DNA of 48,562 nucleotides from contig KZ538237.1 of NCBI GenBank assembly GCA_000934665.2, forward strand, positions 62,001 to 110,562, written 5' to 3'. Under the pieces are notes generated by a model that had not been told where the DNA came from, did not search any database, and was given only the letters and a program-made list of their open reading frames with translations. The position numbers were made by a program, and so were the translations under genes. Source of the stretch: Catajapyx aquilonaris (Eukaryota). Of the stretch, positions 1 to 7,360 are shown piece by piece (position 1 is the stretch's first letter; each line of letters opens with the position of its first letter).

Positions 1-926
1 AAAGACATTGACGTATGCCATGTATCTCAAAATATTATTGGCACATGTTGATTACGGAGCACGCGGTAGCATCGGCCTGACTCCCCGCACAGATCTGGAC
101 CAAAAGAGGTCACCAATGGCTATTCGACATTTGAATTTAAGGCTTTCGAATTGTCGCGCCACATTGTCTCAAGTGGGGGGTCAGAATTACATCATGTTAG
201 AATCAGCAGAGGGGCCGTAGCTCAGTCGGTAGAGCGCTCGCTTCGCACGCGAGAGGTCCTGGGTTCGATCCCCGGCAGCTCCAAGTTTTCTCTTTTACTA
301 TGCTTTTTTTCTTCTTCTTTAAAACTTGATGACCTCCCAGACCTTCAATTCTACGGCGCACTGGCATCCAGGATTTTTTTAAATATTTGAATGGAAATAA
401 TTGCTCGTCTTTATTGCAAATCGAATTCATCATAAGGGTCAGTCCGTGGCAAATGAGCATCAGACGTTGCTCGACTCTCTATGATTTTGACTTTAAAATC
501 ATGGATGTTTATATATGTGAGTGTATGGCAAAAAAGGAGCATTCAGTGTCAGATTTTTCATGCATACACAAAGCAAGATATGCATAAGTCAAAAATGGAA
601 TTTTCCCGAAAAGATGCATTTCGCGCATATTTTCTTTCTCGCAAAATACACCACACCACAACCCAGTGATGTAATATATCAAATTAATCGGGAAATAATG
701 GAGGTTGTGAATCAGTTACTCAGGCAACTGTAAATTAAGCGCATAATTTTAAATTACATATATTAAGCAAAATAATTTTAAAGCGTACGAAAATAGTAGA
801 CTACTTGCATTTGAACAAGTGAACCCGTATTTAATAATCATTATTACTGGCTTCCACAGTTCCACCTTACCTACCAATAATTCAATGCGATACTGCCTAT
901 TCGAGACAATAAATGTAGAATTTGTC
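1..926 (+). repeat. Left arm of a ~930-bp inverted duplication containing tRNA-Ala (may extend beyond the window start)
   Basis: Colinear with the reverse complement of 7361-8300: AAAGACATTGAC at 1-12 matches GTCAATGTCTTT at 8289-8300, and TATTCGAGACAATAAATGTAGAATTTGTC near 898-926 matches the reverse complement of 7361-7389. Confidence 0.93.
211..283 (+). tRNA. tRNA-Ala(CGC)
   Basis: 73-nt cloverleaf: acceptor GGGGCCG/CAGCTCC+A with the G3:U70 Ala identity pair, D-arm GCTC/GAGC, anticodon stem CTCGC/GCGAG with CGC at 244-246, T-arm CTGGG-TTCGATC-CCCGG. T-runs start at 286 (Pol III terminator). Confidence 0.93.
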
Positions 927-999
927 AAAATTCATCCAAATGGACATTAATTCTGAGCTCTAATCCCTGTCAGGACATATCGGGGTTGTATTTCTCTAC

Positions 1000-1560
1000 A
1001 CATTTACTGTGTGACTGTAGTGTCTCTTCAATTGCGTTTCAGTGGCAATGAATGATTCAATAACTGTACTATACTTTCGTGCTCTTGGAAAAGGGATATG
1101 TTCACATAATAAATCTGTGCACCATGAAAGTCTTTTTGAAACACCATCCAGCACATAGTTGACATCTTCAATGTATTATTCACGACTGTCATGTCACACA
1201 GATTTCTATAAGACTGTCTCACTCGTTTCGCACTGTCTTCTGACCCACGCGCGGACATCCTGCACTTTTATCTTTACAGAGGCAACTTCGTTGTCTGAAG
1301 CTGCTGTACTAGCGGCTAATGCAGATGGCAGATGGGAGATCACTCTGAAATTTATTGGTCGCCGGAATGCCCACTGAACAAAAACAACATACTGTAGAGT
1401 GTGGGTGCAAAGTGTACCCCCCCCCCCCCCCAAAAGGCAGACTTCTGCAAATCGTCCGTATGGAGGAACCTATATAGGTAAGATTGCCGGACATTGTTCC
1501 ACGTGAAAGTGGTGGGTTCGCCAATTACGACACCAAACAATTCCAGTAGGCTACAGTTCT
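1000..1560 (-). mobile_element. Decayed mariner transposase 5' fragment
   Basis: Frameshifted minus-strand pieces resemble the mariner N-terminus: 'RQSYLYRFL', 'STAASDNEVASVKIKVQD', 'NNTLKMS..CAGW/VSKRLS' (similar to the WVPxxL motif). Confidence 0.45.
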
Positions 1561-2068
1561 GAATTCACAATCATTAGCTTTATTCAAACCATGAAACCAT
1601 AACATAACACGTTCTTATGTCTAGGCCGAACAATGCAAGGACTCATAAGTAAAACAAATCACTACAAAATATTATGTAAGGAATGTCATTGGTGTAGTCT
1701 ATTACTAACGAACAACCCTAAAGGCCCCGACCTTCCACAATGCAGTCCAACTTACGCACGTCCGTTTCTCCGCATGAGGAGGTTGCATGTGCAGCTTCCT
1801 CTCTGCTTAGACTCTTCTTCCCTTAGCATTGGTCGCTGTCCTTTGTTATCTCCCTTTATCGGCCTTCGACGTCCTGGGGTACTATATAGATACTTCATTT
1901 GGTTTCAGCTACAACACTGCTGGTATCTTGGTCTTCGGGATAGGAGACAGACTAAGAGAGATACCAGTCTTTCCTCTCTTCTTTTTCCTCTTCGTTTCTC
2001 TCTCCATCTGCCCCACCTTTGAATCTTCTCTAGCCAGATAGCCACAGTTGCTTTGGCTTCTTCCTAAT

Positions 2069-2093
2069 AAACCAAACCAAACCAAACCAAACC
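2069..2093 (+). repeat. (ACCAA)n microsatellite, possibly a retroposon 3' tail
   Basis: TAATAAACCAAACCAAACCAAACCAAACC read directly. Confidence 0.7.
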
Positions 2094-2809
2094 TGGGATC
2101 TTGCCCTGCAGGCTGCAGCAGCTGACTTCTTTTGGATTGCATCTTTGGTTTCCTACCTCAGTGGTGGCACCTCTTTTCCTCTAGCGTCTCGGACATCTGG
2201 GATGTGTTTCCTTCACACATCTAGCTCAGACTTCCAGTATTCGTCTTCACCACATGGTCCACATCCAGCTTCGTGTCAATTCTTGACTGCTGACTGGTAG
2301 TAGCTGACCACTCCTCATTCCCGAGGGAGGAGAGAGGAGGGTCCTACAGCTCCAGAGAGGCTTCATCTTGTGCACTCTTCTGACACTAACTGCAACTGTA
2401 CTGTCCCTCCACTGACCATCACTGACTCGGTGGCGTAGGCTTGACTGGTCAGCGATCGGCTACTCCCCCATGTTCCTAACGTCATTACCTCGTCATTTTC
2501 CATTGTTTTTCGAGCTCCTCACTCACCCACCCGTTGCTTTACAAGGGCATATATGATAGAGTTTTATCGCACTCGATTCTTGTTATGGAGGTTATGTATT
2601 TTAATTATGGGTCTGTTATCCTAATTTTGGCATGTCTCGATCTTCTGTATTTTGGCAATTCCTGCCTTACCAGCATACTTCGTCATTCGTTGGAATGGGT
2701 ACCAATAACATCTTTTAAGATAGACAACATTGAACTACCTGACACGGTTGTCAAAAAGTGGACTGGTTTTTTCAAACGTGCCCGAGACAGTTTGTAAGAT
2801 CTTGCGGCC

Positions 2810-2846
2810 CACAGTGGGGCCCAACCTCAAAAAGGTGGACAAAACC
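2810..2846 (+). repeat. Transib TIR at the transposase 3' side, RSS-like
   Basis: Heptamer CACAGTG (2810-2816), 22-bp spacer, then ACAAAACC (2839-2846). Confidence 0.85.
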
Positions 2847-3236
2847 TCAAAAATGCCTTAGATCTGGAGAAAAGTCAGAATTCCAGGGTTTTCATGATCG
2901 CGGAAATAATTATTCTAAATGTTTCTTTTCACACATTTACTGTTTCCATAGTACTGTACCTACGTAGTCAAATCAAAATATTACACTTACTGAACAGTAG
3001 CCCTACATAATATTTTCATCAATCATCATATTATTAAATACAATGGTTTTAGGACGCAAAAATTAACCAAGTAGCCTACAGTACATTTTCTCACTCCACA
3101 TCACTGTCGTCATCAGAAACATGTCCCAGGTCAACTTCTTTGAGCAGAGCCAGGACCTCCGTACTTAAAGCACCACCCTTTTTTGGTGGGAGCGGCCTCA
3201 ATGAGGAAATGACTGGATCCGAGGATTTAAGAAATA

Positions 3237-3660
3237 CAGGGTGTATCTGAACTCAGTGCCCCGAGGTATATGACTGCCTTCCTAGCCACCAGAGGATCGA
3301 TTTAAGTATAGGAATCATTATGTTTGGCCGCCGCATTACGAAGATACACTCTTTAGTGATTTTTGCCTAATCGCTCCTTCTGACTTTTAAATAGAATTTT
3401 CTGGTGTAACTAGCCAAAGAGGCCTTACCACCTGTGGGCAACAAACCAACAAAGTCCCGCCCCCAGACCTTCCAGAGCCTTCTGACTGGGGGAGGGTTCG
3501 ATGGGTGGCCTAACCGACAGGATATTTTGTACTACATGTTTGCGGCCAATTATCTCCGTAATGCGGCGGCCAAACATAATGACTCCTATACTTAAATCGA
3601 TCCTCTGGTGGCTAGGAAGGCAGTCATGTACGTCGGGGCACTGAGTTCAGATACACCCTG
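3237..3660. mobile_element. Tc1/mariner-type MITE (424 bp) inserted in the Transib transposase
   Basis: 110-bp TIRs (3237-3346 and 3551-3660, 4 mismatches by eye) with CAGGGTG...CACCCTG ends and TA at 3235-3236 and 3661-3662. Removal restores 'EDLLH-IFLKSSDP'. Confidence 0.93.
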
Positions 3661-4180
3661 TATATGCAACAAATCCTCATTGGTTGCTACCCGTGATGTT
3701 TTGCGGCTCCTCTTCTCCCTGAACCTTCTAAAGTCTTTGTTCCTCGCCTCCTGTGCCTCTTCGCTAAGCATTCCAATTGGGAGCAAGGCAGCAGCAATGA
3801 GGGTGGACCCATGTATGAGCACCTTGTGTACTGAGCTGGGCATAGGGTACCACTGGTACTCACAGACGTACATGCGTGCTGTGTCTAATGTATACGTGTT
3901 GAAGGCAGTTGCACCTACAGAAAATCCACGTGAGAGTACCTTCAGAATCGTGGAACACCTTGTACAGTATAAGGTCCTCATTAATTCCAGTGATTTGGGC
4001 AGACAAAGTCGGATTCTCAAAAAAACGGCGGGCTGTATTTCCGTCGTTTGTTGTACCCTTTCCCTGAAGAACGACTCCCGCGAACAAGCCCATTTCAGAC
4101 CTAAACTTATTCTGGATGTCCTTTTCCCTATAGCCTCGATTTGTGCTTTGAACGCCTTAGTTTTTTTGTACCATGACTTA

Positions 4181-4307
4181 GGGCCGGTTTCACCGAGCTC
4201 AGTATATGATAAAACCAGGGTTCTTTCTCAAAATCCCTATCTATTTGTATGGGATTTTCCTAAAGAAACCTGGTTTTATCATATACCAAGCTCGGTGAAA
4301 CCGGCCC
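4181..4307. mobile_element. PIF/Harbinger (Tourist)-like MITE (127 bp) inserted in the Transib transposase
   Basis: Nearly fully palindromic, GGGCCGGTTTCACCGAGCT...AGCTCGGTGAAACCGGCCC, with 3-bp flanks TTA/TCA. Removing it plus 3 bp restores 'HVSFRLESKSWY'. Confidence 0.85.
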
Positions 4308-6021
4308 TCACTCTCAAGTCTGAAAGACACATGAATTAACCATTCAAAAAATCGAATGTAAGTATGGAGAGTAGAAAGCCCATACTCGCTTACAGTTTCA
4401 TTTACCTCTCTGACCAACACCTTGTCAATGTCATTCACTTATTGTTTTGATGTAACACCACACATATTGCAGGCCTGAAATGAAGCAGTGTCAGTGATAG
4501 CATGACAGGTTCTACCGTCTATCATTATCATGCACAAGTTATGCTTCACGCGCAAAGGTGCACAAAAATCCCGATCCTCGATGACAGTTTCCTGAAGGGC
4601 TTCAATCTGCTGATCCATGGCCGCCTTTTCCTTCTTAATGATCTCCGTCGTCTCAGGTGCAAACTCTAACTTAACAGGTCTACAAAACCTGGTTGATGAT
4701 GGCCGTGGGTTTTGCCAGACGATAACATTTGGACCACCATCTCCCGGCAAAGCGTATAGTTGGAGAGGTACAAGGCAAGTCATGAATAAACTACGATCAA
4801 ACATATCTGGATTGTCACTTCGCTGCTTATAGAGCGAATGACCACTGCTGCCATCGCACCCCCATTTTGAAATCAAATTTAAGTTGGTCAGCAAAGCAGG
4901 GGAAATGGTCATTACTACATCATTTTGGAGAGTAACAATACGACTTACAGTCAAGTCCAGTAACGCTTGCAGTGAAATCTCTGCTTTGGTTTCAGTGATC
5001 ACTACAGACTCTTTTGGTGGGTAGCACTCCTCTTTTGCCTGCCTCACCTTTTTGTAGGATGCGTGTATATCTGCACCCCTTGACTTCCCCTCTACCCGGA
5101 GCCTTTAGATATGTCTGTTTCTAACATGAGTGAGAGTCCCTCTTGAGCCGTGTAAGGTACCCTCATTCTGTTGCGCAGAAGTCCAAGCCTCGTTGATCTT
5201 CTTTGCACGCTTTGGTGTACTGAGAAGTCCCTCCTTCACCAGCTTGGCCTCTTCCGGTCTTCCCGCGGCACGCATATACGCAGTTGTGTTGCGTAGGCGA
5301 GGACTTCTGGAGTGGTCTCTTGCAACGACTGGACCTTGCGCCTTTTGGACCTGTCACTGCATGTATCGAAGTCTTTCTCCGGCCTTCCCCCTGACAGGCA
5401 AACAATAATAGGCTACTAACTATCATTGGCTTATCATGCATTGGAATATATTTTAGTTCAAATAAATGAATTTGTCTTCAGTTACCTTTGGATGTGCTGG
5501 CCATTTCATGACCCGCTGGTTTTGGGACCTCAAAGGTGATTTCTTTGTCGAGCCTGTCACCGTTCTTCTTCAAAAATAGATCATCTTTGCGGTAACTTTT
5601 CCTCCCATTTCTGTTTTATCTTAGCATAAAATGCTCTATGTGCTTTCAATTTACATGTGCCCCAATTTGCGTCACTGATAATTATCTCCTAGGGCATCCT
5701 TGTGACTGTCGGCGTGGTCGTACCGTACGTCCCAGTCAGCGGGAGACTTCTCCATCAGCACATTGAAGAGCTGCCGATGCCTTCTTGCCGTTGTGAATGC
5801 CATGGTTGAGTGCAATAGGCTACCTTCTGCACTTTAGGGTCACTCAGAAATCAAACAAAACGCACATCCAGGAAGGCTACTCAAGAACTGGTCACCTGTC
5901 TTTGTGTCCTCACCTTTCTGGGCACCCCCTCCCTTCACATTCTTTCCAGTTCATGACACCTCGTGATCCCGAAAGAATGCGGTCCGGTTTGGCTACTACC
6001 GCCATCTGGCGTTGATGTTGC

Positions 6022-6121
6022 AAAGTCACCCCTAATGTGAATAGCAACCGCTAGATGGTGTGGGACGGCGCGAAATCACCCCTAACGTTAATACCTACCA
6101 ATAGATGGTGGGGAAATGGCG
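6022..6121 (+). repeat. Degenerate ~50-bp tandem duplication in the Transib 5' region with CTCF-like cores
   Basis: TCACCCCTAA...TAGATGGTG occurs twice 50 bp apart; CCGCTAGATGGTG at 6048-6060 and CCAATAGATGGTG at 6098-6110. Confidence 0.65.
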
Positions 6122-6282
6122 AACTCGCACAGGCGCGAACACACAAAACTATCCCGTCGCAGACAACACTCACAGTGAAGCTAATATAAAGCGTGTAAAA
6201 AATATTGGTTCCCATTAGAATGTCCCCCCACCCCACCTCACCCCGTCAGGTGCATAACCAATAACTTTAAAAGAGAAAATGC

Positions 6283-6325
6283 AATAATAATAATAATAAT
6301 CATCATCATCATCATCATCCTCATA
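6283..6325 (+). repeat. Compound (AAT)n(CAT)n microsatellite
   Basis: Read directly. Confidence 0.85.
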
Positions 6326-6414
6326 ATGATAATAAGCATAATCCAACTTCAAATAATCGATGTGCATGTAGATTACATCTATTTCCCGCTTCTCGAGTAC
6401 TATGATTACTCCCC

Positions 6415-6452
6415 CCGTTTGCCAACCATTTTTCGGTTGGGCCCCACGGCTG
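6415..6452 (-). repeat. Transib TIR at the transposase 5' side, terminal heptamer degenerate
   Basis: Reverse complement CAGCCGTG-GGGCCCAACC-GAAAAATGGTTGGCAAACGG aligns with the left TIR CACAGTG-GGGCCCAACC-TCAAAAAGGTGGACAAAACC. Confidence 0.75.
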
Positions 6453-7360
6453 GGGCCCTGAGTTCTCCATCACATCATACCATCAGGCATCAGCGCATTC
6501 TCGCAGGCCTGCAATGGAGGAACTGATCATGGGAGATTGCAGATTGGCAGTCAGGTAGGCTACATTTCTGAGGCTGTGCTGGTTATCTGAACCTTTGCTG
6601 TTAATACTTCATGCATGACAATCTGTGCCAGCAGAAGGAGTCATCTCGTTGGGTCCCCCGAATGTTGGAGCCAGAACAGAATAATGTTCTTCGGGAGATA
6701 TCAGACCGAGTTTGGACCTGATGTACGCCTATAATTATACACAGGATGGTTTACTCGAAATGAAACTATCTTCCCATGTCAATTCCGAGACAGAAGATGA
6801 AACACGGCAGTGGAAATGTCTGGGTATTCCGCCCTCGAAGAAGTTCAGGGTGCTGAACTGAAACCAGCTCATAAGTCAACTACATTATTTTTTTTTGCGA
6901 CACATTGACATTCTCCTACCAGGTTTCTTGGAGAAGTAATTACCACCTTTGAGGAGTATAGGCCCTACTCTGCCTATATTCTGAGAAAGTACAGGAAGTT
7001 ATCAAGAACAATTGACTAGGAAAGAAAAGGTAGCCCTGATGGAATATGGTACCCCTTCTCTACCCAGTTTCCAGTCCTGACCTCTACGTGCATCCTGTGA
7101 AGAAACACCTTCAGTGTTGGCTCCATGGATGTGACCACAGTCTTATAATTCGCAAGCATGGGTTGGTAGCTCAACTCTCTATACTACAGTACTCTACAGT
7201 ACTTTGCCTTTACAATCATGGATGCTTATAGTAAGAGTGAGTCTAATTGTCAAAAATAAGTGTCATATTTTACCTGAAAACTCGAAGCAAGATATGCATA
7301 CAGCAGAATCATACAGCCAGAGAAGGACCGGACCCAAAAGCTGGGACCGAGAACCACAGA

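What the first reader, a model, noticed from the sequence alone, without database searches (positions are those of the whole stretch)
2805..6457. Near-complete Transib (RAG1-core relative) with an RSS-like end and a reconstructable transposase
Seen: the left end is the exact V(D)J heptamer CACAGTG, a 22-bp spacer and ACAAAACC (RSS nonamer consensus is ACAAAAACC), which resembles a 23-RSS. The TSD is 5 bp and GC-rich (CGGCC/GGGCC). The catalytic D (GCDGS), D (MIDG) and E (LSEEAQE) motifs, the CxxC and H..H zinc ligands and a GGRP nonamer-binding-like motif all survive. Known: Transib transposases are relatives of the RAG1 core and have RSS-like TIRs. Inference: this may be an uncatalogued family. 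The ends differ beyond the shared core and the right heptamer is damaged (CAGCCGTG), so this copy is probably immobile.
Basis: partly seen in the sequence, partly recalled or inferred. Interest (0 to 1): 0.75.

Follow-up and report, generated by a model that had tools for sequence, protein, structure and literature searches.

The report
Broken copy of a Transib transposon
This is a broken copy of a Transib jumping gene, a known relative of the enzyme that assembles antibody genes; its ends look like antibody-gene recombination signals because Transib ends normally do, so it is a real but ordinary find.

Summary
Window 2810-6452 is a Transib transposon with a minus-strand, one-intron transposase gene of about 680 aa: DDE, zinc ligands and GRP motif are present, and HzTransib is by far the closest solved structure. 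This copy is dead: 7 frameshifts, 1 stop and 2 MITEs. The RSS-like end is not special. Three other ends of the family carry the same CACAGTG + 22 bp + ACAAAACCT at both the 5' and the 3' end, so the TIR is about 44 bp and symmetric, with no 12/23 asymmetry. The odd right end is decay of this copy: a damaged heptamer and about 545 bp missing behind the TIR. Kapitonov and Jurka (2005) describe RSS23-like ends and nonamer-binding-region motifs as the superfamily norm. Four other full-length Transib families in this genome also start with CACAGTG; one has a 7/9 nonamer match at both ends. The closest proteins are unnamed and 57-64% identical, so the family may be uncatalogued (Dfam and Repbase could not be searched). 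The scan noted similar ordinary Transibs elsewhere in this genome. Verdict: new member of a known kind, low interest.

The parts
2805..2809 (+). Left target-site copy CGGCC (putative 5-bp TSD)
   Evidence: 4 of 5 bases match 6453-6457; no empty site found
2810..2853 (+). 3' TIR (downstream of the gene), about 44 bp: CACAGTG heptamer 2810-2816, 22-bp spacer, nonamer-like ACAAAACCT 2839-2847
   Evidence: 91-93% identical over 44 nt to the two 5' family ends and part of an 89% match over 177 nt to the C4728 3' end
3091..5390 (-). Transposase exon 2: GRP/NBD-like helices, DDE core, ZnB ligands, SSDP-type C-terminal tail; broken by frameshifts near 5274, 5158, 5098, 4129 and 3965, a stop at 4439 and two MITEs
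   Evidence: tblastn with homologues, copy comparison, PDB hits to HzTransib
3237..3660 (.). MITE 1, 424 bp, arms of about 113 bp, TA target duplication (Tc1/mariner-type; label recalled); high copy
   Evidence: absent from the C4728 copy; read contigs skip it
3748..3768 (-). Catalytic E motif LSEEAQE
   Evidence: aligned to HzTransib LSEEASE and RAG1 ASEGNES
3811..3831 (-). ZnB histidine pair VHKVLIH
4181..4307 (.). MITE 2, 127-bp palindromic element, TTA/TCA 3-bp target duplication (PIF/Harbinger-type; label recalled); high copy
   Evidence: (130-bp insertion absent from C4728 and C8323)
4460..4471 (-). ZnB CxxC (CNMC)
4514..4525 (-). Second catalytic D (MIDG)
4847..4861 (-). First catalytic D (GCDGS)
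5190..5390 (-). GRP-led nonamer-binding-domain-like region (frameshifted near 5274 in this copy, open in C12284)
   Evidence: fold likeness to the RAG1 NBD weak and not significant
5391..5485 (-). GT-AG intron, 95 bp here (86 bp in C12284), phase 1, just before GRP
   Evidence: removing it gives an open frame in the C12284 copy, the unspliced frame stops; intronless homologues are colinear. No RNA evidence.
5486..5803 (-). Transposase exon 1 (about 102 aa N-terminal region, ATG at 5803); frameshifts near 5679 and 5597 in this copy
   Evidence: resembles the N-termini of P0004, P0006 and P0008
5990..6200 (-). Unrelated dispersed repeat (about 200 bp) in the 5' region, shared with the C12284 copy
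6418..6452 (-). Damaged 5' TIR: heptamer CAGCCGTG, first 32-35 nt kept, nonamer-like part and about 545 bp behind it missing at an AAAC microhomology
   Evidence: Alignment to the C12284 5' end; read contigs cover 6342-6800 with no other letters
6453..6457 (+). Right target-site copy GGGCC (putative TSD, one mismatch)

Best explanation
A decayed copy of a low-copy (at least 5 loci), probably unnamed subgroup II (HzTransib-like) Transib family. Shown: single transposase gene with one intron, DDE and ZnB motifs, symmetric TIRs of about 44 bp, GC-rich flanks, lesions private to this copy. Inferred from the family's known biochemistry: the intact element makes a transposase of about 680 aa whose dimer binds both ends, cuts at the CAC heptamer by nick and hairpin, and inserts into GC-rich sites with a 5-bp duplication. 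Inferred and untested: the GRP helical domain reads the conserved inner GG-ACAAAAC block 22 bp from the heptamer, the same at both ends, so there is no 12/23 rule. After insertion this copy took two MITEs, 7 frameshifts, a stop, and damage plus a deletion at its 5' end. It can neither make transposase nor, probably, be moved in trans.
For: PDB: HzTransib E=5.8e-43 and 1.2e-27, against RAG1L E=0.46 and 0.044. Read-through 57-64% identical to the six closest homologues; it groups with five unnamed proteins at support 99 among 127 Transib-like rows. D2-E spacing 209-213 including break positions, within the published 206-214 for Transib, against 253 for RAG1. Family ends at C12284, C641 (5') and C4728 (3') carry the same heptamer, spacer and nonamer-like block. 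The C12284 end sits exactly at the break point of a repeat: 14 of 14 empty sites read on without it. Other copies differ by 3.6-5.3% substitutions and lack the MITEs where they overlap them. C4728 is open over its 239 assembled codons (one N) and C12284 over its 169.
Against: The TSD has one mismatch and no empty site was found for this copy. No complete intact copy is assembled, so about 810 bp of the middle is seen only in broken copies. The intron has no RNA support. The NBD likeness rests on the GRP motif and weak fold hits only. The tree held no HzTransib, RAG1 or subgroup I rows, so the subgroup call rests on features, not on a tree.
Confidence: 0.93

Rival explanations
1. An RSS-like 'missing link' element closer to RAG than ordinary Transibs, with asymmetric ends (one 23-RSS-like, one different).
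For: Exact CACAGTG heptamer, 7/9 nonamer match at 22 bp, GGRP motif; the two ends of this copy differ.
Against: Undamaged 5' and 3' family ends are nearly identical over 44 nt; best 12+/-1 nonamer match is 4/9 at all five ends. No room or ORF for RAG2L. The core is colinear with HzTransib with no ZnB insertion. No CCGHC-type tail in 0 of 122 stored proteins, nor in the window or C4728 C-terminus. The same end type occurs in the C3133 family and in published Hopper and TransibN1_DP ends.
Confidence: 0.03
2. The short right end is not a deletion in this copy; instead C12284 carries a 545-bp insertion, or the short end marks a mobile sub-lineage.
For: Both window ends share an A at TIR position 15 where the three other ends have G, which hints at a separate sub-lineage. 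Only C12284 shows the full 545 bp.
Against: C641 shares 66 nt with C12284, 22 nt beyond the TIR, which the window lacks. The rest of the 545 bp matched nothing else among the 40 of 149 candidates scored. The junction has an AAAC microhomology. The heptamer is damaged and no second copy of the short end was seen among the loci fetched.
Confidence: 0.12
3. The family is a copy of a family already in Repbase or Dfam.
For: Those libraries could not be searched; Transib families are numerous.
Confidence: 0.1

Closest known systems
HzTransib of Helicoverpa zea (PDB 6pqn and related; Transib subgroup II of Tao et al. 2022)
   Same: DDE core, ZnB, C-terminal tail colinear; best PDB hit by far; heptamer-like ends; 5-bp GC-rich TSD.
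   Different: HzTransib lacks most of the NBD region and its TIRs have little nonamer likeness (PMC4840297, passages); this family keeps a GRP domain, about 100 aa further N-terminal, one intron, and a 7/9 nonamer-like block.
Transib families of Kapitonov and Jurka 2005 (Hopper, TransibN1_DP, Transib-N1_SP, TransibN3_AG)
   Same: RSS23-like ends are the consensus of 21 families; Hopper has a 22-bp spacer then ACAAAAATT, TransibN1_DP ends in GGCCAAAACCT, Transib-N1_SP and TransibN3_AG start with CACAGTG; 3-4 kb; about 700-aa transposase.
   Different: Different spacer sequence and host; none of the ends seen in the supplement is identical. It is not one of the 12/23-asymmetric families (Transib5, Transib2_AG, TransibN1-3_AG).
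RAG1 core and RAG1L/ProtoRAG transposons
   Same: Same catalytic fold family and motifs; GRP motif; CACAGTG heptamer.
   Different: Remote (E 0.04-0.7 for window pieces); D2-E about 209 against 253; no RAG2L; no ZnB insertion; no CCGHC tail; no 12/23 asymmetry.
Unnamed Logan/ENA proteins P0002, P0003, P0005, P0007, P0027
   Same: 57-64% identity, one branch at support 99.
   Different: Still different families by identity; hosts and ends unknown.

Membership tests
Transib superfamily | Transposase homologous to Transib/RAG1 core with DDE triad | tested here: met
   HzTransib E=5.8e-43 and 1.2e-27; motifs located
Transib superfamily | D2-E spacing 206-214 aa | tested here: met
   209 to the first E of the motif and 213 to the last, break positions included; six homologues 205-207 to the first E. 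Which E is catalytic is recalled.
Transib superfamily | TIRs starting CAC with heptamer and A-rich inner block about 23 bp in | tested here: met
   4 of 5 family ends intact with CACAGTG + 22 + ACAAAACCT; the fifth (window right end) is damaged
Transib superfamily | 5-bp GC-rich TSD | tested here: inconclusive
   CGGCC/GGGCC 4 of 5, no empty site for this copy; single flanks of other ends are CGGCG, CGGCG, GGCGT
Transib superfamily | Nick-hairpin cut-and-paste activity | not testable with these tools
   Needs biochemistry
Transib subgroup II (Tao et al. 2022) | No alpha11-alpha12 insertion in ZnB | tested here: met
   Window pieces colinear with P0002 apart from the MITE; P0002 colinear with HzTransib across ZnB
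Transib subgroup II (Tao et al. 2022) | CTT2 tail rather than CTT1 (CCGHC) | tested here: met
   SSDP-type tail, no cysteine tail in window or C4728; the search pattern for CTT1 is recalled
Transib subgroup II (Tao et al. 2022) | Placement in a tree with subgroup I, II and RAG1L references | not tested
   Reference sequences were not at hand; the tree held only hits and G000 families
RAGL/ProtoRAG transposons | RAG2L gene inside the TIRs | tested here: not met
   No ORF of 100 aa or more outside the transposase span; under 700 bp free at either end
RAGL/ProtoRAG transposons | Asymmetric (12/23-like) TIRs | tested here: not met
   5' and 3' family TIRs nearly identical over 44 nt; 12-type match at most 4/9
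RAG1 nonamer-binding domain | GRP motif followed by a three-helix fold | tested here: inconclusive
   GRP present; model pLDDT 76; profile search found no RAG1; RAG1 in 7 of 34 Foldseek rows at E 1.8-9.2 and in 4 of 50 VIA rows at Z 3.2-3.8, residues 389-462: all below significance
Named family in Dfam/Repbase | Close full-length DNA match | not testable with these tools
   Libraries not available

The most novel reading that the evidence does not exclude
An uncatalogued Transib family, possibly with intact copies collapsed in the assembly, that pairs an exact RSS heptamer and a 23-RSS-like inner block at both ends with a complete GRP domain. If its transposase needs the inner block through that domain, or cuts true 23-RSS substrates without RAG2, it would give a direct test of whether nonamer recognition predates RAG2, which the NBD-poor HzTransib cannot give. 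The weak point is that many Transibs, including an intact one in this genome (C3133), offer the same test.
Probability: 0.2. Interest if true: 0.45.

Novelty: new member of a known kind. Interest (0 to 1): 0.2.

Why it matters
Little on its own: it adds one probably unnamed family to a large, described superfamily and shows ordinary decay (MITE insertions, small duplications, a subterminal deletion). Its use is as one more example of GRP-domain Transibs with symmetric 23-RSS-like ends. Biochemistry on such elements could show how nonamer recognition began; Martin et al. (bioRxiv 2023.08.20.553239, passage) call for work on more Transib transposases. The intact family at C3133 is a better reagent than this copy.

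Tried and rejected
Pfam scan of eight window pieces: only RAG1 PF12940 at E=0.0097, below its cut-off; uninformative. Empty site for this copy: left and right flank searches gave no locus that spans the junction. Idea that C12284 and C4728 are the two ends of one copy: rejected, the empty sites continue with a sequence unlike the C4728 flank. 12-type signal at either end: rejected. NBD profile against PDB sequences: no RAG1 hit at E up to 10; fold searches not significant. Expression and splicing: no RNA holder listed, so nothing can be said. Contig depth over the element is 50-160 against 16-34 in the flanks, which fits several copies but is no copy number. Supplement of PMC9435367: 0 hits for four terms including control terms, so the held text probably lacks the sequences; uninformative, and the unseen sequence file may hold a close family. 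The HzTransib structure paper (PMC6872938) was not available. The first tree run did not finish; FastTree was used. A search of earlier scan notes by sequence found nothing.
Full report
Observation. The described features are in the sequence. The left end at 2810 reads CACAGTG, a 22-bp spacer and ACAAAACCT (7/9 to the RSS nonamer). The right end reads CAGCCGTG inward from 6452. The flanks are CGGCC and GGGCC. A 7/9 nonamer match within three offsets occurs at 0.7% of window positions and CACAGTG occurs 4 times in the window, so the arrangement is not chance. The catalytic, zinc and GRP motifs lie on the minus strand at the coordinates given in parts.

Identity. The longest open piece (4442-5101) hits HzTransib at E=5.8e-43 and RAG1L at 0.46. 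The piece with the catalytic E hits HzTransib at 1.2e-27, RAG1L at 0.044 and RAG1 at 0.2-0.7. A search among proteins of 386-2000 residues gave 266 hits, of which the best 120 were listed. Read through with X at the breaks, the window protein is 57-64% identical to the six closest. It groups with five unnamed proteins at support 99 in a FastTree of 127 rows. That tree held no HzTransib, RAG1 or subgroup I reference; G000 ORFs under 300 aa (L085, L086, L088) were left out. D2-E spacing is 209-213 with break positions included, within the 206-214 given for Transib and far from the 253 of RAG1 (PMC1131882, passage).

Gene structure. ATG at 5803, exon 1 to 5486, GT-AG intron 5485-5391, exon 2 to the stop at 3091. 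In the C12284 copy the intron is 86 bp; removing it gives an open frame through to the contig end, and the unspliced frame stops. Intronless homologues read straight through this point. The family protein would be about 680 aa. No RNA run was listed, so splicing is inferred.

Copies and lesions. G000 holds other pieces of the family at C12284, C3409, C4728, C8323, C244 and C641. Four of them were aligned and differ from the window by 3.6-5.3% substitutions. Against them the window copy has MITE 1 (3237-3660, TA duplication), MITE 2 (4181-4307, TTA/TCA duplication), frameshifting indels near 5679, 5597, 5274, 5158, 5098, 4129 and 3965, and an inserted stop at 4439. Contigs from DNA runs of one sample show forms without several of these lesions; that sample may be the source of the assembly, so this is not independent. 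C4728 is open over its 239 assembled codons (one N) and C12284 over its 169; both end at contig edges, so an intact copy may exist unassembled. C3409 and C8323 are broken.

The ends. A genome search for the TIR start (one mismatch allowed) gave 6 matches against 3 for the control pattern; 4 were exact and are family ends. Two are 5' ends (C12284, C641), two are 3' ends (window left, C4728). All four read CACAGTG + 22 bp + ACAAAACCT, and the 5' and 3' ends are nearly identical over about 44 nt. The best 12+/-1 nonamer match is 4/9 at every end. The C12284 end lies exactly where a young repeat is interrupted: 14 of 14 fetched empty sites read on without it, which proves that CACAGTG is the true terminus. 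The window's right end aligns with the first 32-35 nt of the C12284 end and then jumps about 545 bp at an AAAC microhomology. C641 shares 22 nt beyond the TIR with C12284, which favours a deletion in the window copy. Against this: both window ends share an A at position 15 where the others have G, so a sub-lineage is possible. The odd right end is not an assembly error as far as read contigs show. The window's TSD remains inferred, as no empty site was found.

Is the RSS likeness special? No. Kapitonov and Jurka 2005 (PMC1131882; I saw passages, and parts of Figure S4) state that the 38-bp consensus end of 21 families is a heptamer, a 23-bp spacer and a nonamer-like block, that most families are RSS23-like, and that the terminal motifs of RAG1's nonamer-binding region are conserved. 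Their Hopper end has a 22-bp spacer and ACAAAAATT; Transib-N1_SP and TransibN3_AG start with CACAGTG. Tao et al. 2022 (PMC9435367, whole main text) report the GRP domain in both Transib subgroups and symmetric TIRs in subgroup II. In G000, 4 of the 9 other Transib loci examined gave a full TIR pair with a perfect 5-bp TSD; 7 of their 8 ends start CACAGTG, and the C3133 family has 7/9 nonamer matches at 22 bp at both ends; the other six ends score 3-6/9. All 9 loci have a GRP-like region, with the motif altered in two, as do 79 of 94 homologues long enough to test. HzTransib is the exception: little nonamer likeness and most of the NBD missing (PMC4840297, passages).

NBD test. A model of the 66-aa GRP region from C12284 is helical (pLDDT 76). 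A profile search of PDB sequences found no RAG1. RAG1 chains fill 7 of 34 Foldseek rows at E 1.8-9.2 and 4 of 50 VIA rows at Z 3.2-3.8 over residues 389-462. This fits NBD homology but is below significance.

Mechanism. Shown: anatomy, symmetry of the family TIR, lesions. From established Transib biochemistry (bioRxiv 2023.08.20.553239, passages): nick-hairpin cleavage at the heptamer and 5-bp duplication. Inferred: the GRP domain reads the inner block equally at both ends, with no 12/23 rule. This copy is dead in cis and probably in trans, since the 5' heptamer has lost its CAC and the inner block is gone; scrambling one heptamer abolished HzTransib activity.

Novelty. It is a member of Transib on every feature that could be tested except the TSD, which is inconclusive, and fits subgroup II by features. 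It is not a RAGL element: no RAG2L, no asymmetry. Whether the family is catalogued could not be tested; three paper searches were on general terms and cannot show absence from print. A 2026 preprint (10.64898/2026.08.26.747230, passages) concerns Drosophila Transibs and restates the RSS-like TIR as a known feature. Earlier scan notes on other Transibs in this genome reach the same ordinary verdict; they are unchecked notes and were not used as support. The host was not identified. Superfamily labels for the MITEs and the 5' repeat are recalled. Final: new member of a known kind, interest 0.2.

Noticed in passing
L084:1820-5053 (G000:C3133): Apparently intact Transib of another family: open frame of 677 aa from the first ATG, TIRs CACAGTG + 22 bp + ACAAAAAAA / ACAAATACA, perfect TSD CAACG. 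A better reagent than the window copy.
   Followed up: partly
L082:2176-5393, L087:2283-6081, L088:1882-6039: Three more full-length Transib families with perfect 5-bp TSDs (CAAAG, CGGCG, CGCCG). L087 has a second, inner 3' end at 5558 that is also followed by CGGCG, and its protein starts MAFTTT like the window family.
   Followed up: partly
L080:4336-4560 (G000:C641): One-ended family fragment: 66 nt of the 5' end, with a 20-bp flank repeated about 150 bp further on; perhaps an aborted insertion or repair product.
   Followed up: no
window 5990-6200: A dispersed repeat of about 200 bp, ending in a short hairpin, lies in the 5' region of both the window and C12284 copies, so it entered before they split. 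Helentron-like by recall only.
   Followed up: partly
window 2756-7356: A similar locus (L092, C8891) joins about 2755 to about 7357, so the Transib lies inside about 950 bp of further DNA that the other locus lacks; that DNA has a few 68-70% relatives.
   Followed up: partly
window 3900-5820: Most small lesions of this copy are insertions of 1-9 bp, many of them short tandem duplications.
   Followed up: no
L084:4994-5881: A 295-aa ORF next to the C3133 element looks like a LINE ORF1 protein (recalled; no Pfam hit above cut-off) that the Transib interrupts.
   Followed up: no
G000 as a whole: 37 matches to the transposase piece (52 of 52 candidates scored), from many distinct Transib families at 35-55% identity: a Transib-rich genome.
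   Followed up: partly
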